Below are positions 20,501 through 57,647 of a stretch of DNA of 64,000 bases, in pieces. Position numbers and translations under genes: made by a program. Location: the NCBI GenBank assembly GCA_902788975.1, contig CADAMI010000012.1, positions 5,148-69,147 on the forward strand, read 5' to 3'. The notes below the pieces were generated by a model. The model saw only the letters and a program-made list of their open reading frames with translations. It was not told the origin of the DNA and did no database searches. This DNA is from an uncultured Erysipelotrichaceae bacterium. GTDB lineage: Bacteria > Bacillota_I > Bacilli_A > RF39 > UBA660. How positions within the stretch are numbered: the first letter of the stretch is position 1; each line of letters opens with the position of its first letter.

Positions 20501-22605
20501 CCGGAATATATAGTAATCAATATGGCCCAGGAGATACGTTGGATTGGTCTGGTTTGTTTGCTAAAGGTAGTTATGTTTTAGGTAAGCATTTAACTAATCA
20601 TAATATTAAAGTTAATGGATTTTACAGTAATTTTATGAATGAAGAGACACAAGTAAATGAAGTAAATTATATTGATCCAACACCAAAGGATTCGCAATTT
20701 TATATGTGGTATATTGGGGAAAATATAATTGAATATAATGTTAATTTGGTGGCATCAAAATACTCTACATTAGGTTCGGTAGAGCAATCATTCTTAGAGT
20801 TTTCTAAACCAAATACCTCTTTCCAGATTGAAAGTTTCGATATTTCAGATATTGCTTCTGGAATATCATTGGTGGATAAAAATAATATTCCTAGAATTGC
20901 TGCTAACAATAATGATGCTAACAATATATTTGGTTTAGCAATGGAAGCAAGTAATAATGGTTGGTTAACGACTGGTAAAACATCTTTTTATACGACAAGC
21001 CCTTGGATGCAAGGTGTAACGTATTATGAAGGTGAAAACTCTACAGTTGTTCCAACGATGTTGTTCTATTTATATCACTCTAAGAATATTACGGAAACAA
21101 AGGATTTAGGAACAGTTCGTATTACGATTAAGGCAATTACTAAAATAAATGCTTTATCAAGTGAAGTAGAAAGATTAGTTGTTAATGTCAATATGTCAAC
21201 GGCATTGTTCCAAACAACTGAATATGAAGGAGCGATGACACCCGGTGATAAGTATGATTTATTTACTTCAACAACTACGAATATTACAACAAAGAGTAAA
21301 TTCAGTGTATATTACGGACTATATTCAGCTGGTACAAATATTTATCAAAGTGGTTATCATAGAGCTTTGACATCATCTTATATTCTTCCGGAGAACACTA
21401 AAATAACAATGATTGATTTTGGTACTGGAACGACAGAATACTACTATCATGTTATTACGGCTCAAGATGTTGCTAATGCGCAAAGTGAATTTCAATCAGA
21501 AAATGAATGCTCTTATAATTTATCATTATTTACTCGTATGGGTAGTTTAAATAACAATAGTAATTATGATGATGCGGCTAAGAATGCTATTTATTATGAC
21601 GGAACAAATAGTAGTGAAGAATTTATCTTTATTGTCGATTTTTCTGACACTGATATTCAAAGTGATCAATTAGAAAAAAAATTATTAATAGAAATAAGAG
21701 ATGCCAATGATGAGGGAATAATTACCGTATTAGGTATTCAACATGATCAATTAACTTATAATTTATATTCAGGAAAAGATTCAATAATTAATGAGACGGT
21801 TGTTGCATCGGCTAATCCACTTTATATTGGTTATAATGATACTTTTGAAGTTTCTATTGACTATCAAAATTCTAATTTAAGTGGGGTAGCCATTACTGAT
21901 ACACAATATTTTGATTCTAAATTAGGAGTACAAATTGCTATTAAAGATGCTAGAGGAAATGTTGTTTCTGGAACTGACCTTACGGGTGCTTATTTCCTTA
22001 TTGATGGAACAAGATATTACCCTGATATTGCTGGATATACACATATTAAATTAGCTAATAAAGTTGGTAATACGAAAAAATGGATTATCTTTAATACCGA
22101 GAATGCAAGTCTTGGAACTGGTTCTTATACATTTACTTTTGAAGCTTTTGCATCGACGGATGGTATATATTATAGTTCTGGTGCTTCGTCGTTTGTTAAT
22201 CTACCAATAGATATAATAAATAGTAAATATGGTCTTAATCCAGTACTAAATGAAGATAGTGTAATATTTAACGAAAAGGGGACGGATAGAGCATTGAAAT
22301 TTACAATTAATTATACATCTCTTTTGAGTAATCCTAATTTACGTATAGCATTGTATCGTCGTGAATATGATGAAATATATGACATTGATTATGATTTGGT
22401 TGATTTACAAGATTATGTATCGTCTACATTGACAACCACTGCTAATCCAAGTGAATATTTACTGTCAAATAGTCCATCACAAGTTAATACGTATGCACTT
22501 CTTTTAAATGATGATTTAATGACAGGGACATATAGATTAGCCTTTAGATTATATGATAGCAATACGATGATTGGTGAAATCAATCAATATATAGTAATAA
22601 AGTGA
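14536..22605 (+). CDS. Giant (2689 aa) secreted/surface beta-solenoid repeat protein
   Basis: Single uninterrupted ORF. N-terminal signal/TM (LLIAVFLIAMLLTW). Central block of roughly 30 tandem 25-aa units, each carrying a YGG(G/S)N motif (e.g. TVTNIYGGSNTLGNVSTTNVDILSG). Gly/Asn/Thr/Ser-rich composition typical of parallel beta-helix fibres. RBS aggagagtagg. Confidence 0.8.
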   Translation: MNKLKAFIKQHKYSLLIAVFLIAMLLTWNFMNSFSETTTDSAWDGVVARQFTSGTGSTDNPYVIANASEFAYFKSLLEGEDASLYAHKNYKLVGSFNYGKYDLAINNKVPFSGTIDGCGNKIYNASLSNMLFNILDGATIKNLQLVSLSYTLINETGAIVANDIKNSNIEMLLVNCDVNVQNDSTFGGLVYNSSDTTYKNIIIDYNIDSENENIFNFAYTMDNDNGANILIKDNNYQNTYCETNINFNKFNIKDGNINLIDVDNLNEFVSDNYKIIIKNNEFNFEEITNDLNNESQADDSSEHPNEHSNMLKSVVRNSTITVHDQGIDGTTIYINNLLSDSNYFKGLNHTEVLSTSIPSGVSTGYYDDSNLVKVAVVYDGTDINNANLVGAVSPINSENVNKYVYYKYYPLERTSSGDLATDNNGNNYIRIELIDNPFSKRPYVSTTEYGFNGWACNQGNSSDGVCESATFSFDNDIYTRYVDIAIDGSSEFTLYLNANWINADVVTSYYNISSFNSMTMENLPTHPVQYVIHHIASPHWKQNYTTMEYYQSYNRYSQMPTTTGYYYKTSTTSTTYYRLRNGNRTCQRTTCYVYRANTSGITSGSLYEGGTVEFFPNYNASSNTIYSTTISDYNTTYMNLVDDPNGTIEYDETATANRMILGDGSTAGSYYYKVTNPTAAMINTGEYYNSDGSVCTNANNCRTAYKLIQYNDTVTNSDGTSIYNINADGNGNIIDQDNYYYLVTRDTNIFRYTSTTALEMDYLQVNKPFTVTGTAVNGTSVTGVLEYPTGWGWDSSAEDFTASNDIVIENIKIYGPGGTGSDNLGIGDDDSYTSYVIYANSKNLKIGRNVVSSRDSSYLVANGIFNGTNTSVTGRFKVIVESGIYSAFHTGPVDPYGRDGSRQHNTTTSTYNALTVLGSDYDRVKVDNSKLKFFIGLDGMSGGYNNALSGNFIAFTTVKSGMYGFNADGTPSTDYTAGLYLGGHGYTDYFQVNNTTGAKIEGGKINIVVGGVGYSGSATTNANYIGMSGGEVRQIYGGAGTNTTKGNRIINVTGGTINYSILGGSNSSSSNSSTDGIVDGDTLVYVGGNVTVGTENDELYLVESGSIFGAGGGNTNYSSLGTVKNSHVIINGGTINKSVYGGGNFGSTGTQSSSAASTVIDIYKGTIGNVYGGSKSAGFSTSQYASSSTIDINMTGGTVGNIYGGSNEKGTIYGSTDIDITGGTISNNIYGGGQGENTFVTNDVDVTIGVANVANTPTVGGNVYGGSAFGTVNCATTSGNATGDTTVTVDNGLVTGSVFGGGQGSSTATPYVLGDITVNINGGDITSVFGGNDQAGSHTAVNEVYLNGGIIENVYGGGNRSSVTNTNIYMDGSTVTNIYGGSNTLGNVSTTNVDILSGTVQNVYGGNNEGGTCGTTDVNVTGTASINGSIYGGGNQVATTTTTVTLNSANGTVPNVYGGGNSASVTTSNVTNNGVTATNIFGGSNSSGTVTTANVTYNSGTSTNVYGGNNAGGNTVTSNIDINNGTITTVYGGGNQANGGTSNVDIGGGNITSVFGGGNSAGLTQSNINVTAGTVGDVYGGSNNSGTVTIANIDVATGTITNIYGGGNRAEVGTPTVVVDGGAVANIYGGGNLAQVTGNTIVDINGGTISGNVYGGGNYGVVKGSSNVTITNATILGNAYGGGNGSSATLEGNTNITIDGNTTIGNASSVAPNSGCVFGGGNQALTGIQDNNNSTSSVNIVGGTINGNVYGGAKFSVIYGNTIVNIGETAYTSNSLTKSDIYVKGNVFGGGEANSSGSEIYDWSFISVTQGVNISIDADTYQNFQIDGSFFGGGNASSATGDSYLTIRNYGSGMNPKRNVSIQRVTYVTIDNSSILLAGAIDRANEYDNELFSISRVDDFKLQNNSYIFFVTGANLLKNFQSLDSSGNPAVVTITDDYRITNRSVDNRVYMYEGKNLNVAEDQQVTVYGEVTGMSFFGIFNYANGGINTGIYSNQYGPGDTLDWSGLFAKGSYVLGKHLTNHNIKVNGFYSNFMNEETQVNEVNYIDPTPKDSQFYMWYIGENIIEYNVNLVASKYSTLGSVEQSFLEFSKPNTSFQIESFDISDIASGISLVDKNNIPRIAANNNDANNIFGLAMEASNNGWLTTGKTSFYTTSPWMQGVTYYEGENSTVVPTMLFYLYHSKNITETKDLGTVRITIKAITKINALSSEVERLVVNVNMSTALFQTTEYEGAMTPGDKYDLFTSTTTNITTKSKFSVYYGLYSAGTNIYQSGYHRALTSSYILPENTKITMIDFGTGTTEYYYHVITAQDVANAQSEFQSENECSYNLSLFTRMGSLNNNSNYDDAAKNAIYYDGTNSSEEFIFIVDFSDTDIQSDQLEKKLLIEIRDANDEGIITVLGIQHDQLTYNLYSGKDSIINETVVASANPLYIGYNDTFEVSIDYQNSNLSGVAITDTQYFDSKLGVQIAIKDARGNVVSGTDLTGAYFLIDGTRYYPDIAGYTHIKLANKVGNTKKWIIFNTENASLGTGSYTFTFEAFASTDGIYYSSGASSFVNLPIDIINSKYGLNPVLNEDSVIFNEKGTDRALKFTINYTSLLSNPNLRIALYRREYDEIYDIDYDLVDLQDYVSSTLTTTANPSEYLLSNSPSQVNTYALLLNDDLMTGTYRLAFRLYDSNTMIGEINQYIVIK
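17600..20060 (+). repeat. Coding tandem repeat, period about 75 nt (25 codons), roughly 30 copies
   Basis: Recurring tatggtgg(c/t)gg(t/a)aa strings at about 18598, 18669, 18745, 18826, 18903, 18975, 19050, 19125, 19197, 19270, 19343, 19417, 19494 and 19572. Spacing 70-81 nt. Confidence 0.7.
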
Positions 22606-51307: not shown

Positions 51308-52392
51308 GTGCTAGATAAAAGAGAAATAACGATAAAATATAATAATTGTTTAAATGATATAAATGATATTTGGAGGTCACTCCCGGCTTAGATAGTAAGA
51401 TAATTAGAAGAGATGAACTGGATAAAATTATTAACTCAGTAGACTTTTGGAATAGTAGTAATAAAGATAGTGATTTAAAAGAATTTAATAATTTAAATAA
51501 TTTAGTTAATGATATTACTAATGTTAAGAATAAAATTGAATCTAATATTGAATTATTAAATGAAGAAATTGATGATGATATGTTACAAGTTATTGATAGT
51601 GAATATGAAGATATCAACAAAGATGTTCAACGACTTAGAATAGATACTTATTTATCAGGTGAATTTGATAAAAATGATTGTTTTTTAGAAATTCATTCAG
51701 GAGCTGGAGGAACTGAAGCATGTGACTGGGCTAATATGTTATATCGAATGTATACGAGATATTTAACTAAGAATGGTTATAAATATATTGAGATAGATTC
51801 ACAGCCTGGAGATGAAGTAGGTATTAAATCAGTAATGATAGAAATTAGCGGTAAAAATGCTTATGGATATTTAAAAGGAGAAATTGGAGTACATAGACTT
51901 GTTAGAATTAGTCCCTTTGATGCGAATAAAAGAAGACATACTTCGTTTGCTTCAGTTCTTGTTACACCAAAATTTGATAAAAATATTGATATTAATATAA
52001 ATGATAGTGATATACGTGTTGATATTTATAGAAGTAGTGGACCTGGTGGTCAGGGAGTTAATACGACTGATTCAGCGGTTAGAGTTACCCATATACCAAC
52101 AGGAATTGTTGTTACATGTCAAAATGAACGTAGTCAAATTAGGAATCGTGAGATTGCGATGGAAGTTCTTAAGAATAAACTTTATAGTTTAGAACTTGAA
52201 AAACAAAATAAAGAGATAAAGACTATTCAAGGCGATATGATGACAATTGGCTTTGGTAGTGGTAAACGTAGTTACGTAATGTGTCCTTATACATTGGTAA
52301 AAGATAATGATAGTGGATATGAAACTAGTAATGTAGAAGGTATTTTAGATGGGGAAATTGGGGAGATGTTAGAAAAGAATATAAGGAGGTAA
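51308..52392 (+). CDS. prfB: Peptide chain release factor 2, with a frame discontinuity near 51380-51390
   Basis: The body matches RF2 (GGQ motif SGPGGQGVNTTDSAVR, SPF tripeptide in RLVRISPFD). The N-terminal 25 codons start at GTG 51308 in a different frame (LDKREITIKYNNCLNDINDIWRSL aligns with B. subtilis [22 protein letters not shown]). That frame ends at a UAG. The junction requires a -1 (or +2) shift. Confidence 0.75.
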
Positions 52393-52394
52393 TT

Positions 52395-53300
52395 ATGCTT
52401 CTATTTAAGAAATTTAGGGAAAAAAGAATAGATGAAATAATTGAAAGAGTTAATAAGAAGAATATCTTTGGTAGATATATAATGCTGCTTAGTGGGTGTT
52501 TAATTGTAGCATTTGCTTTCAATTTGTTTTTTCTAAGATATAATATCGTTTGTTTTGGTGTTAGTGGGGTATCAATCGTTTTAGCTGAATTTGGTATACC
52601 ACCGTCTACATTTATTATGATTACCAATATTATTTTACTTATTATAAGTTATTTCTTTTTGGGAGTTAATGATACGAAAGGACAGATTGTAGGATCATTA
52701 ATATATCCAGTATTTGTTAGTTTAACGGCTTATGTTACCAATATGATTGATTTAGGAAATTTAGAGATGATAGTTATTGCCGTTTTGGGCGGTGTTCTAG
52801 CTGGTGTTGGATATGGATTAATTTATAAAAGTGGTTATGGTACTGGGGGCACTGATATTATCGGTAATATGGTTGTTAAATATTCCAAAATATCAATGGG
52901 TAATGCAATGATGTTTATTAATATTTCCATTATTGCATTAGGAAAACTTGTCTTTTCGTGGAAGACGGTTATGTATGCAGTAGTAGTAGCGTATTTAATA
53001 TCAATGTTTACGGATAAAATACTTTTAGGAATATCTAATAGTAAAGCATTTTATATAGTAGTCGACAAATCAAAAGATGATATTGTAAGAGATTTTTTAA
53101 CTTCACTAAATGGCGTTGGAAGTACAATAATTGATGCGCATGGTGGATACTCTAACGATAAACAAACTTTAATATTAGCAGTTGCTCCAACTAAAATGTA
53201 TTTTTTAATTAAAGAAGGATTAAAGGAGATTGATAAAAATATCTTTTATTTAGTGTGTGACTCTTATGAAGTTAGTAGTAGGGGAAATAAATATGAATAA
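52395..53300 (+). CDS. YitT-family membrane protein (DUF161 transmembrane region + C-terminal DUF2179)
   Basis: Five TM helices, then a soluble C-terminal domain (DAHGGYSNDKQTLILAVAP). The ATGA-type start sits 3 nt after the prfB stop. Confidence 0.55.
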   Translation: MLLFKKFREKRIDEIIERVNKKNIFGRYIMLLSGCLIVAFAFNLFFLRYNIVCFGVSGVSIVLAEFGIPPSTFIMITNIILLIISYFFLGVNDTKGQIVGSLIYPVFVSLTAYVTNMIDLGNLEMIVIAVLGGVLAGVGYGLIYKSGYGTGGTDIIGNMVVKYSKISMGNAMMFINISIIALGKLVFSWKTVMYAVVVAYLISMFTDKILLGISNSKAFYIVVDKSKDDIVRDFLTSLNGVGSTIIDAHGGYSNDKQTLILAVAPTKMYFLIKEGLKEIDKNIFYLVCDSYEVSSRGNKYE

Positions 53301-54180
53301 TTTTGATATTAATGATTTTATAAATGATTTACATAAGAAACATTTTTTAAAGAATTTATTGTTGTTTTTAGCTGGCGTATTTATTTCAGCCTTTGCTTTT
53401 AATTTATTTTATCAGAGATATAGCGTAGTTGCCGGCGGTTCTACAGGGTTATCAATTTTACTAAATAACTTTATTACTTTAGATATCTCAATAATTATAT
53501 TAATATTAAATTTAATATGTTTAATGATTGGTCTAATCTTTTTTGGTTGGGAATATGCAGTTAAAATGTTAGCAGTTACATTTATTTATCCGTTGTTTGT
53601 AAAAGGTTTATTATATTTAACAAATTTAATTAATTTAGAAGATACTTCAATGTTTTTAGTAATGGTAGTTGGTGGGGGACTTACCGGGTATGCGAATGGG
53701 TTAATTAGAAATAGTGGATATAGTCCAGGTGGATTTTATTCATTGTATGATTTGATGAGTAAGTATTTACATATAAGTATTGGAATGGCTAATACGATTA
53801 TTAATGTTATTTTAATTAGTTTAGGCGGTTTCTTCTTTGGTATGGATAAAGCAATATATGCGATAATTTCTTTGTTAGTGTCATCATATGTTGTCGATAG
53901 AGTAACAATAGGAATATCTGATAATAAAGTATTTTATATTATTACTAATAAACCACTTGAAGTGAAGGAATATGTTAACGATAAGTTAAATTATGATGTT
54001 ACGGTTGTTAATGCTAGAGGTGGATACACAAATAAAAGAAAGAAAATGCTTATGTGTGTGGTGCCAACAATTGAGTATGTTAAATTAAAAGAAATAGTTA
54101 ATGAAATAGATGATAAAGCATTTTTCTTAATTGTTGATGCATATGAGTCTAGTGTTAAGAAAAAATGTAAAAATATGTAA
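53293..54180 (+). CDS. Second YitT-family membrane protein (tandem paralog)
   Basis: Same architecture (NARGGYTNKRKKMLMCVVP). Start ATG 53293 (MNNFDIND). The ORF track opens at 53257, overlapping the upstream paralog. Confidence 0.55.
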   Translation: MNNFDINDFINDLHKKHFLKNLLLFLAGVFISAFAFNLFYQRYSVVAGGSTGLSILLNNFITLDISIIILILNLICLMIGLIFFGWEYAVKMLAVTFIYPLFVKGLLYLTNLINLEDTSMFLVMVVGGGLTGYANGLIRNSGYSPGGFYSLYDLMSKYLHISIGMANTIINVILISLGGFFFGMDKAIYAIISLLVSSYVVDRVTIGISDNKVFYIITNKPLEVKEYVNDKLNYDVTVVNARGGYTNKRKKMLMCVVPTIEYVKLKEIVNEIDDKAFFLIVDAYESSVKKKCKNM

Positions 54181-56915: not shown

Positions 56916-57647
56916 ATGGCAATACAAGAAATATTTATTTGTATGGATGATTCTGGAAAATTGACTAATCATGAAAAATATGCGGCTTACGGTGGAATTG
57001 TCTTTTTTACTAAAAATGAAAAGGATAAATTTATAACTCAATACAGACAAATAATTAAAAAAATTAAATGTAGCGAATGTAATCATAATAATATTAATTG
57101 TGACAATGTTTGTCACGAAATAAAGAATGCTAGAATTAAAAATGCTGGTAATAAAAGATGGATAATGAATTATATAAAAAAATATGCAATGTTTTGTCTT
57201 GTTATTGATAATAGTAGAATTACGAAATATATAATGGAAAGTAAAAGTTCGAAAGGTAGATATTTAGATTATGCACAAAAAATGTTAGTTAAGAAAATAT
57301 TTCTTGATATGATTAATCAAGGAAAGATAAACCCTTATAAACCTGTTAAATTAACAATGTATATTGATGAACAAACTACTAAATCAAATGGATATTATAA
57401 TCTTAGAGAAAGTATTAGAGAAGAATTTTTACATGGAATTATTAATTTTGATTATGGGATTGTATATAGACCTATATTACATAGTAGTTTTAAAATCGAT
57501 ATTCATTATGTTGATTCAAAAAAAAATTATATTGTACAAGCGGCTGATTTCGTCGCAGGTGAGGCTCGGTCTTTGTGTTTAAATAATAATGAAAATATAA
57601 TACAGGATATTTTACATAACTATACATATATAAAATTTTTACCATAA
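56916..57647 (+). CDS. DUF3800-like protein (tentative)
   Basis: N-terminus MAIQEIFICMDDSGKLT resembles the remembered DUF3800 start (iyiDESG). Strong RBS taggaggt. 243 aa. Confidence 0.4.
   Translation: MAIQEIFICMDDSGKLTNHEKYAAYGGIVFFTKNEKDKFITQYRQIIKKIKCSECNHNNINCDNVCHEIKNARIKNAGNKRWIMNYIKKYAMFCLVIDNSRITKYIMESKSSKGRYLDYAQKMLVKKIFLDMINQGKINPYKPVKLTMYIDEQTTKSNGYYNLRESIREEFLHGIINFDYGIVYRPILHSSFKIDIHYVDSKKNYIVQAADFVAGEARSLCLNNNENIIQDILHNYTYIKFLP

What the first reader, a model, noticed from the sequence alone, without database searches (positions are those of the whole stretch)
51308..51400. prfB interrupted by a non-canonical frame break (upstream frame ends in UAG, needs -1 not +1)
RF2 genes commonly carry an autoregulatory +1 frameshift at CUU-UGA-C after codon 25 or so. 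Here the conserved N-terminal segment is encoded from GTG 51308 and ends ...tgg agg tca ctc ccg gct TAG. The RF2 body (GLDSKIIRRDELDK...) reads from the overlapping frame reached by a -1 (or +2) shift around the C-run at 51382-51385. There is no UGA and no CUU-U slippery context. Adding a single C to the run would fuse both parts into one uninterrupted ORF. The possibilities are a homopolymer sequencing error in a frameshift-less prfB, a pseudogenised prfB, or an atypical recoding site. A genuine UAG-terminated upstream frame would be odd because RF2 does not read UAG.
Basis: seen in the sequence. Interest (0 to 1): 0.55.

Follow-up and report, generated by a model that had tools for sequence, protein, structure and literature searches.

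The report
Non-canonical frameshift site in prfB
In this rumen or gut bacterium and three related lineages, the near-universal +1 frameshift signal of the release factor 2 gene (CUU-UGA-C) is replaced by CUC-YCG-G, which has no UGA and needs a +2/-1 frame change; the altered site recurs in dozens of independent assemblies and the gene is still under strong purifying selection.

Summary
ORF0 (GTG 51308 to TAG 51391) encodes the RF2 N-terminus. The RF2 body (to 52392) lies in the -1/+2 frame. There is no UGA and no CUU-U.

It is not a sequencing error. The same junction, GGAGG-TCA-CTC-Y-CGG-Y-TTAGAT, occurs in the window and 24 fetched loci from independent metagenome assemblies. These fall into four diverged backgrounds (dS about 0.8-1.0), and the database records more contigs.

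It is not a pseudogene. Body dN/dS is 0.04-0.13, ORF0 is always intact, and UGA ends about 5 of 53 window genes.

Seventy-eight of 80 GTDB relatives, and some strains of the same species, keep the canonical GGAGG-TCN-CTT-TGA-C. A 2025 survey of 12,753 genomes reported only CTTTGA, CTTTAA and TTTTTGA sites and no TAG.

The UAG is incidental. It is the TAG inside the Leu-Asp codons TTA-GAT, which canonical relatives also have.

Best reading, inferred and not shown: a stop-independent forward +2 slip. The retained internal Shine-Dalgarno, 3 nt upstream, pushes peptidyl-tRNA-Leu from CUC onto the overlapping CYC. That landing codon is a perfect CUC in the likely ancestral allele. The slip gives ...WRSL-G-LDSK.... 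RF2 autoregulation would then be lost or rewired.

Rivals are a -1 slip and internal initiation at TTG/ATG 51370. This is a new variant of a known kind and needs experimental proof.

The parts
51308..51391 (+). ORF0: the prfB N-terminal segment (GTG start; MLDKREITIKYNNCLNDINDIWRSL, then Pro-Ala-stop for ribosomes that do not shift).
   Evidence: It is homologous to and collinear with ORF0 of canonical relatives. It is intact in all 25 non-canonical sequences. Fusing it to the body raises the TIGR00020 score and extends the match to profile position 4.
51372..51376 (+). Internal Shine-Dalgarno-like GGAGG, retained from the canonical cassette. It lies 3 nt (TCA 51377-79) upstream of the Leu codon.
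   Evidence: It is invariant in all non-canonical and nearly all canonical relatives. Its role as a stimulator of forward slippage comes from established knowledge of prfB (PMC12421855, PMC5009743).
51380..51387 (+). The altered shift site CTC-C-CGG-C (consensus CTC Y CGG Y). CUC 51380-82 is the proposed take-off codon, CYC 51382-84 the proposed landing codon, and GGC 51385-87 the first body codon.
   Evidence: It replaces CTT-T-GAC of relatives. Three alleles are seen: CTCCCGGC, CTCTCGGC and CTCTCGGT. Both variable positions are silent under a +2 model. In the window's genes CTC is 0.9 per 1000 codons, CCG is 1.5 per 1000, and CGG is used once in 20,002 codons.
51389..51391 (+). UAG that ends ORF0 for non-shifted ribosomes. 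It is incidental, being embedded in the body codons TTA GAT.
   Evidence: The same TTAGAT is present in canonical relatives, where it is out of frame with ORF0.
51385..52392 (+). RF2 body (GLDSK ... NIRR, TAA stop), containing the SPF and GGQ motifs.
   Evidence: TIGR00020 scores 440.6 bits. SPF and SGPGGQ are visible in the translation. dN/dS is 0.04-0.13.
51370..51372 (+). Body-frame TTG (ATG in some relatives). This is the start that gene callers use for the 340-aa product and is the candidate internal start in the rival explanation.
   Evidence: Ten of 15 same-species sequences have TTG (ATT TGG) and five have ATG (ATA TGG). No SD lies upstream.

Best explanation
This is a functional, naturally occurring prfB allele in which the canonical +1 autoregulatory site (SD-N3-CUU-UGA-C) has been replaced by SD-UCA-CUC-YCG-GYU-UAG. 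Full-length RF2 therefore requires a net -1 (= +2) ribosomal frame change between 51367 and 51391.

Most likely mechanism (inferred): when CUC (51380-82) is in the P site, the retained internal Shine-Dalgarno duplex only 3 nt upstream pushes the ribosome forward, as in canonical prfB. The 0-frame A-site codon is a rare YCG, and the +1-frame codon is CGG, which this genome almost never uses. Peptidyl-tRNA-Leu therefore moves 2 nt onto the overlapping CYC (51382-84). That codon is a perfect CUC in the CUCUC alleles and is CCC in the window. GGY (51385-87) is then read, giving ...DIWRSL-G-LDSK..., the same length as canonical RF2.

Non-shifted ribosomes make a 27-aa peptide ending at the incidental UAG. 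Because no RF2-read stop codon is involved, the classical RF2 feedback would be lost or replaced.

Shown: the sequence is real and recurrent, the gene is under selection, and the cassette differs from all described ones. Inferred: that a ribosomal shift occurs, its direction and size, and its stimulators.
For: The allele is real. The identical junction is in the window plus 24 fetched loci from independent ENA, JGI and Logan assemblies. The 340-aa products P0121, P0122, P0126 and P0132 are recorded on 34, 6, 2 and 1 contigs.

It occurs in four diverged backgrounds. Body nucleotide identity among three of them (window, L081 and L082/L083 groups) is about 80-82% and dS is 0.8-0.97. The fourth (P0139) is 80% identical in protein to the nearest other background. 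In the protein tree the junction appears in at least 4 places. All five full-length members of the P0139 cluster are non-canonical.

The gene is functional. dN/dS is 0.035-0.052 among L081, L086 and L093, which all carry the junction, and 0.11-0.13 between backgrounds. The body is 335 codons everywhere and ORF0 is intact everywhere. UGA terminates about 5 of 53 window genes. The tRNA-Trp has anticodon CCA. Only one GGQ release-factor gene lies in the window.

Cassette logic is partly retained. GGAGG, the 3-nt spacer and a Leu CUN codon are invariant.

For +2 specifically:
- Both polymorphic junction positions (Y at 51383 and Y at 51387) are silent under +2, but non-synonymous under every other model.
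- The allele found in the two most diverged backgrounds is CUCUC, which gives perfect re-pairing.
- The +2 product fits TIGR00020 best: 447.0 bits, against 442.2 for the -1 product and 440.6 for the body alone; a canonical relative scores 452.5.
- GAC to GGC creates CGG in the +1 frame. CGG occurs once in frame against 137 and 95 times out of frame.
- Entry into the -1 frame by a +2 slip has been observed by mass spectrometry on E. coli dnaX (PMC4344849).

Against internal initiation: ATA to ATT is silent in ORF0 but turns the body-frame ATG into TTG, and it is the majority state in this species.
Against: There is no experimental evidence of any kind. No peptide, reporter or ribosome-profiling data exist.

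In the window's own allele (CUC-CC) the +2 landing codon is CCC, which mismatches tRNA-Leu at the middle position. In that allele a -1 slip of tRNA-Pro (CCG to CCC) would re-pair better.

CGG is not strictly undecodable in the clade. L104 carries an in-frame CGG in ORF0 where L102 and L103 have CGA, and the window has one in-frame CGG.

The 0-frame codons CCG and UCG are rare but clearly used, 30 and 66 times, so the pause may be weak and the efficiency low.

The argument from silent variation rests on only two sites. The junction may also have spread by short-patch recombination, so its conservation across backgrounds is partly identity by descent.

No stimulatory RNA structure was found. Whole genomes could not be checked for a second prfB or for unusual tRNAs.
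Confidence: 0.5

Rival explanations
1. A -1 ribosomal slip rather than +2. One version has tRNA-Pro moving from CCG (51383-85) back onto CCC (51382-84), giving ...SL-P-GLDSK. The other is a 'shifty stop' event: tRNA-Ala on GCU (51386-88) slips to GGC while UAG waits in the A site, helped by the SD 9 nt upstream, giving ...SLPA-LDSK. The second version would make RF2 synthesis sensitive to RF1, which reads UAG.
For: In the window allele, CCG to CCC keeps the first two pairs. The body lies in the -1 frame. The distance of 9 nt from GGAGG to GCU is close to the 10-14 nt range known to favour -1 shifting in dnaX (own knowledge). A stop codon in the A site is a classical pause.
Against: In the CUC-UCG alleles (L082, L083, L089, L102-L104), tRNA-Ser cannot re-pair on CUC. 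At the stop, GCU to GGC and GUU to GGU both mismatch at the middle position, and the tRNA identity changes from Ala to Val between alleles. There is no X XXY YYZ heptamer and no conserved downstream structure. Both junction polymorphisms would be non-synonymous. The -1 product scores lower against TIGR00020 (442.2 versus 447.0 bits).
Confidence: 0.2
2. There is no frameshift. The body is translated independently from the body-frame TTG/ATG at 51370 (MEVTPGLDSK...), producing an RF2 that lacks its first ~21 residues, plus a separate 27-aa ORF0 peptide.
For: A start codon exists in all 25 sequences, ATG in 15 and TTG in 10. Gene callers use it. The missing segment is only the first helix of domain 1.
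Against: No SD lies upstream of 51370; the GGAGG is downstream of it. The ATG is a by-product of the Ile-Trp codons ATA TGG, which canonical relatives also have. Within this species the ATG was replaced by the weaker TTG through a change that is silent in ORF0, and TTG became the majority state. ORF0, its start codon and the sequence upstream of it stay intact and conserved, with ORF0 dN/dS about 0.3 as in canonical pairs.
Confidence: 0.12
3. The allele is non-functional or nearly so, a recent pseudogene. It is tolerated because another prfB copy or another termination or rescue route covers UGA.
For: The two frames cannot be joined by standard decoding. Whole genomes were not available to exclude a second copy.
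Against: dN/dS is 0.04-0.05 within a lineage where every member carries the junction. The body is intact in four backgrounds separated by dS about 0.8-1.0. The allele appears fixed in three backgrounds and is the majority form in the fourth. UGA stops are in use. The gene sits in the same syntenic position as in relatives.
Confidence: 0.05
4. A sequencing or assembly artefact: a missing C in a homopolymer.
For: One extra C would restore a single ORF.
Against: The same sequence is seen in the window and 24 fetched loci from different projects and assemblers. There are two further sequence variants of the junction. The same projects also yield the canonical allele (L090, L091). The difference from the canonical site is multi-nucleotide. 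No protein of about 360 aa appears among the 155 close relatives retrieved.
Confidence: 0.01

Closest known systems
Canonical prfB +1 programmed frameshift (SD-N3-CUU-UGA-C), the autoregulatory site of RF2
   Same: Same gene, same position in the protein, same internal SD (GGAGG), same 3-nt spacer, and a Leu CUN codon in the P site. ORF0 is about 25 codons. The surrounding sequence is homologous to that of relatives.
   Different: There is no UGA or UAA at the site. The Leu codon is CUC, not CUU-U. Two nucleotides rather than one separate the frames, so the shift is +2/-1. ORF0 ends two codons later at UAG, which RF2 does not read. The RF2-sensing logic is therefore absent. Surveys report only CTTTGA, CTTTAA and TTTTTGA sites, no TAG, and only +1 shifts (PMC12421855; PMC3711429).
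Rare-codon ('hungry codon') +1 frameshifting, e.g. yeast Ty1 CUU-AGG-C (own knowledge: Belcourt and Farabaugh 1990)
   Same: Peptidyl-tRNA-Leu sits on a CUN codon. A rare or slowly decoded codon, rather than a stop, gives the pause. A scarcely used Arg codon (CGG here) is involved.
   Different: Here the very rare CGG is in the +1 frame, not the 0 frame. The net displacement needed is +2. A bacterial SD stimulator is present.
+2 slips into the -1 frame seen on E. coli dnaX (Yan et al. 2015, PMC4344849), and synthetic +2 hops (Weiss et al. 1987, cited in PMC5009743; details from memory)
   Same: They show that bacterial ribosomes can move +2 and resume when the tRNA can re-pair. CUCUC offers identical take-off and landing codons.
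   Different: Those are minor by-products or engineered constructs. Here +2 would be the obligatory route for an essential cellular gene.
Stop-codon-directed +1/+2 frameshifting in Euplotes (PMC10235951)
   Same: Obligatory non-triplet steps inside ordinary cellular genes, including +2.
   Different: That is a eukaryotic, genome-wide phenomenon directed by stop codons. The case here is a single bacterial gene with no stop at the proposed shift site.
Evolutionary loss of the prfB frameshift by single-nucleotide deletion (PMC13245932; in-frame relatives L063 and L078)
   Same: It also removes RF2 autoregulation. It also arises within lineages that otherwise keep the cassette.
   Different: Loss normally fuses the frames and erodes the SD and slippery signals (PMC12421855). 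Here the frames stay separate and the SD is retained.

Membership tests
Peptide chain release factor 2 (prfB, TIGR00020) | Full-length match above the curated cut-off (370 bits), and higher than the RF1 models | tested here: met
   The body alone scores 440.6 bits and the +2 fusion scores 447.0. The RF1 models score 246-256 bits, below their own cut-offs.
Peptide chain release factor 2 (prfB, TIGR00020) | GGQ catalytic motif and SPF stop-codon recognition motif | tested here: met
   SGPGGQGVN (codons at about 52039) and VRISPFDANK are visible in the translation.
Canonical prfB +1 autoregulatory frameshift cassette | Internal SD-like sequence 3 nt upstream of the shift codon | tested here: met
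   GGAGG at 51372-76, then TCA, then CTC. This is invariant in all non-canonical copies.
Canonical prfB +1 autoregulatory frameshift cassette | Slippery CUU-U (or UUU-U) | tested here: not met
   The site reads CTC-C in the window and CTC-T in other alleles.
Canonical prfB +1 autoregulatory frameshift cassette | In-frame RF2-readable stop (UGA, rarely UAA) immediately after the Leu codon, followed by C | tested here: not met
   The next codon is CCG or UCG. The first stop is UAG two codons later.
Canonical prfB +1 autoregulatory frameshift cassette | Body of the gene in the +1 frame | tested here: not met
   The body is in the -1/+2 frame, and the +1 frame ends at TAG after CGG CTT AGA.
Classical -1 programmed frameshift (X XXY YYZ plus a 3' structure, or an SD 10-14 nt 5') | Slippery heptamer that allows tandem re-pairing | tested here: not met
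   C CCG GCU and C UCG GYU do not allow the A-site tRNA to re-pair.
Classical -1 programmed frameshift (X XXY YYZ plus a 3' structure, or an SD 10-14 nt 5') | Conserved downstream stem-loop or pseudoknot | tested here: not met
   The folds differ between alleles and their z-scores range from -1.35 to +1.28.
Pseudogene | Relaxed selection (dN/dS near 1) and accumulation of further stops or indels | tested here: not met
   dN/dS is 0.035-0.13. The body is 335 codons and ORF0 is intact in every copy.
Phase-variable (slipped-strand) gene | A long simple repeat at the break, and both in-frame and out-of-frame length variants in the population | tested here: not met
   The repeat is only CCC or CTCTC. 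All 25 copies are in the same frame state, and there is no in-frame product of about 360 aa among the 155 relatives retrieved.

The most novel reading that the evidence does not exclude
A natural, obligatory, stop-codon-independent +2 ribosomal frameshift (tRNA-Leu moving from CUC to the overlapping CYC, driven by the retained internal SD) has replaced the otherwise hyper-conserved +1 UGA-sensing site of prfB in a clade of uncultured low-GC Bacilli. The new site has spread between species by short-patch recombination. RF2 synthesis would then be uncoupled from RF2 sensing. It might instead be tuned by the decoding of rare NCG or CGG codons, or by RF1 through the UAG, or by RF2's action on mismatched P-site complexes.
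Probability: 0.4. Interest if true: 0.85.

Novelty: new variant of a known kind. Interest (0 to 1): 0.78.

Why it matters
The prfB frameshift cassette is the textbook case of autoregulatory recoding. It is considered almost invariant: CTTTGA in about 98.6% of 8,164 frameshifting genomes, never TAG, always +1. A clade that swapped it for a site needing a different displacement and lacking any RF2-read stop would be important for three reasons if confirmed. It would show that the cassette can evolve into something other than canonical or lost. It would provide a natural bacterial substrate for studying +2 slippage driven by a Shine-Dalgarno duplex. It would also raise the question of how RF2 dosage is controlled without feedback in organisms with few UGA stops.

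There is a practical consequence as well. Annotation pipelines will call these genes pseudogenes or N-terminally truncated RF2, and all database entries found here are the 340-aa truncated call.

Tried and rejected
- Sequencing error: rejected because of recurrence in independent assemblies and the multi-nucleotide difference from the canonical site.
- Pseudogene: rejected by dN/dS and ORF integrity.
- UGA reassignment making RF2 dispensable: rejected. UGA ends about 5 of 53 genes, no gene is split at a TGA, and the tRNA-Trp has anticodon CCA.
- Second release-factor gene in the window: none found. The whole genome could not be tested.
- Stimulatory RNA structure: nothing conserved or significant. 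A 4-bp GGAG/CUCC hairpin exists only in the CTCCC allele.
- Tandem -1 slippage, tRNA-Ser or tRNA-Leu hops to other codons, and a shift further upstream (UGG-AGG): considered by inspection. All give poor or non-conserved re-pairing, or end in the +1 frame, which stops at AGA TAG.
- Re-initiation after UAG using the internal SD: no start-like codon lies at a usable distance in the body frame.
- Phase variation: no in-frame variants seen.
- The look-up of encoding contigs on the window ORF failed, presumably because the tool translates the TTG start as Leu. P0126, which is identical to the window ORF, was also not retrievable.
- The metagenome pattern scan returned three unrelated chance hits (L084, L085, L088).
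- A PDB search of the only gene with an in-frame CGG, intended to infer the meaning of CGG, found nothing.
- The promoter scan did not call a promoter upstream of ORF0, although a TATAAT hexamer at 51281-86 is conserved in relatives.

Full report
**1. What is in the window**

- ORF0 starts at GTG 51308 and reads ...GAT ATT TGG AGG TCA CTC CCG GCT TAG (stop at 51389-91).
- The long ORF 51370-52392 lies in the -1 (= +2) frame and is release factor 2. It scores 440.6 bits against TIGR00020 (cut-off 370), starting at profile position 19, and contains the SPF and GGQ motifs.
- The frames can only be joined between the body-frame stop TGA 51364-66 and TAG 51389-91.
- The rest of the 64 kb is densely coding and has no other visibly split gene.
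- GC content is about 27%.

**2. Comparison with relatives**

- A scan of one genome per GTDB species returned 80 loci, all uncultured gut or rumen Bacilli-type MAGs. The best was 89% identical in protein.
- At the aligned position, 78 of the 80 carry the canonical cassette tGGAGGtcN CTT TGA C. Two (L063, L078) are in frame and have no cassette.
- The window has CTC CC GGC where relatives have CTT T GAC. That is several substitutions plus one extra base. Two nucleotides, not one, now separate the frames, and the UGA is gone.

**3. Not an error**

- Protein searches found 340-aa RF2 calls beginning MEVTPG or MEVTLG, which are the body-frame reading of the same junction.
- Fetching their DNA, together with one pattern scan of JGI metagenomes, gave the window plus 24 independent loci carrying the junction:
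  - CTCCCGGCT in 19 sequences: the window, L094-L101, L105-L110, and L081, L086, L087, L093.
  - CTCTCGGCT in 4: L083, L102-L104.
  - CTCTCGGTT in 2: L082, L089.
- These come from different projects and assemblers. Some of the same projects also yield the canonical allele of the same species (L090, L091).
- In the window's 90% identity cluster, the non-canonical products are recorded on 34, 6, 2 and 1 contigs. The listed canonical members sit on about 21 contigs.
- All five full-length members of the P0139 cluster are non-canonical.
- No canonical member turned up in the clusters of P0032, P0033, P0037, P0053 or P0059.

**4. Not a pseudogene**

- Every body is 335 codons and every ORF0 is intact.
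- dN/dS among L081, L086 and L093, which all carry the junction, is 0.035-0.052 (13-19 synonymous against 3 non-synonymous differences).
- Between the three backgrounds compared, dN/dS is 0.11-0.13 with dS 0.8-0.97. That is the same as for canonical pairs, at 0.09-0.11.
- ORF0 evolves as it does in canonical pairs, with a ratio of about 0.3.
- UGA ends about 5 of 53 genes (29 TAA, 19 TAG, 6 TGA including one doubtful ORF).
- The tRNA-Trp has anticodon CCA, so RF2 is needed.

**5. Population and evolutionary pattern**

- The window is 96% identical in DNA to canonical L090. It is 99-100% identical to canonical L092 across the 5' half, except for a cluster of differences at columns 172-188, which is the junction.
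- L092 is itself a mosaic: its 3' half is like L081.
- In a protein tree of the retrieved relatives, the junction appears in at least four places. The window's group is nested inside canonical sequences.
- The junction has therefore moved by short-patch recombination, or far less likely arisen repeatedly, and has reached majority or fixation. That argues it is at least not deleterious.
- The CUCUC allele is found in the two most divergent backgrounds and is probably ancestral. This is an inference.

**6. Why UAG is not odd**

- The TAG is the middle of the body codons TTA GAT (Leu-Asp).
- Canonical relatives have the same TTAGAT.
- It is simply the first stop that non-shifted ribosomes meet.

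**7. Mechanism**

All of this section is inference.

- Retained from the canonical cassette: GGAGG, a 3-nt spacer, and a Leu CUN codon.
- New elements: CUC in place of CUU, a pyrimidine, then CGG.
- A forward slip of peptidyl-tRNA-Leu from CUC onto the overlapping CYC puts GGY in the A site and gives ...WRSL-G-LDSK.
- Four points support this:
  - The two polymorphic junction positions are silent only under this model.
  - CUCUC re-pairs perfectly.
  - The +2 product has the canonical length and the best fit to the family model: 447.0 bits, against 442.2 for the -1 product and 440.6 for the body alone.
  - GAC to GGC places CGG in the intermediate +1 frame. The window uses CGG once in 20,002 codons, against 137 and 95 out-of-frame occurrences. 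Ribosomes advancing by one would therefore stall rather than continue into the dead-end +1 frame.
- CGG is unassigned or reassigned in several low-GC Firmicutes, including RFN20 Bacilli (PMC8629427).
- +2 entry into the -1 frame has been seen on dnaX (PMC4344849).
- Weak points:
  - The window's allele lands on CCC, a middle-position mismatch.
  - L104 tolerates an in-frame CGG in ORF0.
  - CCG and UCG are used elsewhere in the window's genes.
  - No RNA structure was found.
- A -1 slip remains possible, either by tRNA-Pro in the CCC allele or at the UAG with the SD 9 nt upstream.
- Internal initiation at 51370 is disfavoured. There is no SD upstream of it, ORF0 is conserved, and the ATG there became TTG in most strains of this species through a change that is silent in ORF0.

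**8. Comparison with what is known**

- Prince et al. 2025 surveyed 12,753 genomes. Of the 8,164 with a frameshift site, virtually all carry CTTTGA. There are 21 TTTTTGA exceptions, 1.4% use TAA, and none use TAG.
- The 2016 recoding review stresses how few variants of the cassette exist.
- Known evolutionary exits are deletions that fuse the frames.
- I found no description of a prfB that needs -1/+2.
- The locus is a member of the RF2 family but fails three of the four defining features of the canonical cassette.

**9. Verdict**

This is a real, recurrent, selected, undescribed variant of the prfB recoding site. The existence of the variant is well supported. The decoding mechanism is a hypothesis that a junction-peptide mass measurement or a reporter assay would settle.

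Noticed in passing
whole window (codon counts over 52 ORFs): CGG is almost never used as a codon: 1 of 20,002 codons, against 137 and 95 CGG trinucleotides in the other two phases. The single in-frame case is in the gene at 56916-57647. This suggests CGG is unassigned, very slowly decoded, or reassigned in this lineage.
   Followed up: partly
L104, ORF0 of prfB (about 45 nt upstream of the junction), compared with L102 and L103: One strain of the fourth background has CGG where its siblings have CGA, inside ORF0 of prfB. CGG must therefore be decodable there, or that strain pays a cost.
   Followed up: no
window 14536-22605 (+): A giant 2,689-aa ORF ending in TGA. It has no Pfam match at E<=1e-5, and its local GC content (0.35) is higher than the window average (about 0.27).
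   Followed up: partly
L092 compared with the window and L081 (prfB alignment): prfB of L092 is a mosaic. Its 5' half is 99-100% identical to the window and its 3' half is about 92% identical to the L081 group. Homologous recombination between these co-occurring species is therefore frequent inside this gene.
   Followed up: partly
whole window (stop codons of 54 ORFs): TAG is unusually common for a 27% GC genome (19 of 54 ORFs, against 29 TAA and 6 TGA). RF1-specific stops therefore outnumber RF2-specific ones by about 3 to 1.
   Followed up: no
L063 and L078 (prfB 5' region): Two of the 80 related species have an in-frame prfB with no SD, CUU or UGA cassette. These look like ordinary independent losses of the frameshift within this group.
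   Followed up: no
window 52395-53300 and 53257-54180 (+): Two tandem YitT/DUF2179 membrane-protein paralogues lie immediately downstream of prfB. The arrangement FtsK, DAHP synthase, prfB, YitT x2, FtsE/FtsX-like is conserved in relatives. In L081, L093, L102 and L104 the DAHP synthase gene is not listed directly upstream of prfB: L081 and L093 have other ORFs there, L104 has FtsK, and in L102 the upstream ORF is cut by the contig end and has no family call.
   Followed up: no
whole window: GC skew is strongly positive in most 4-kb bins and nearly all genes are on the + strand. This is consistent with a leading-strand segment that contains no replication origin or terminus.
   Followed up: no
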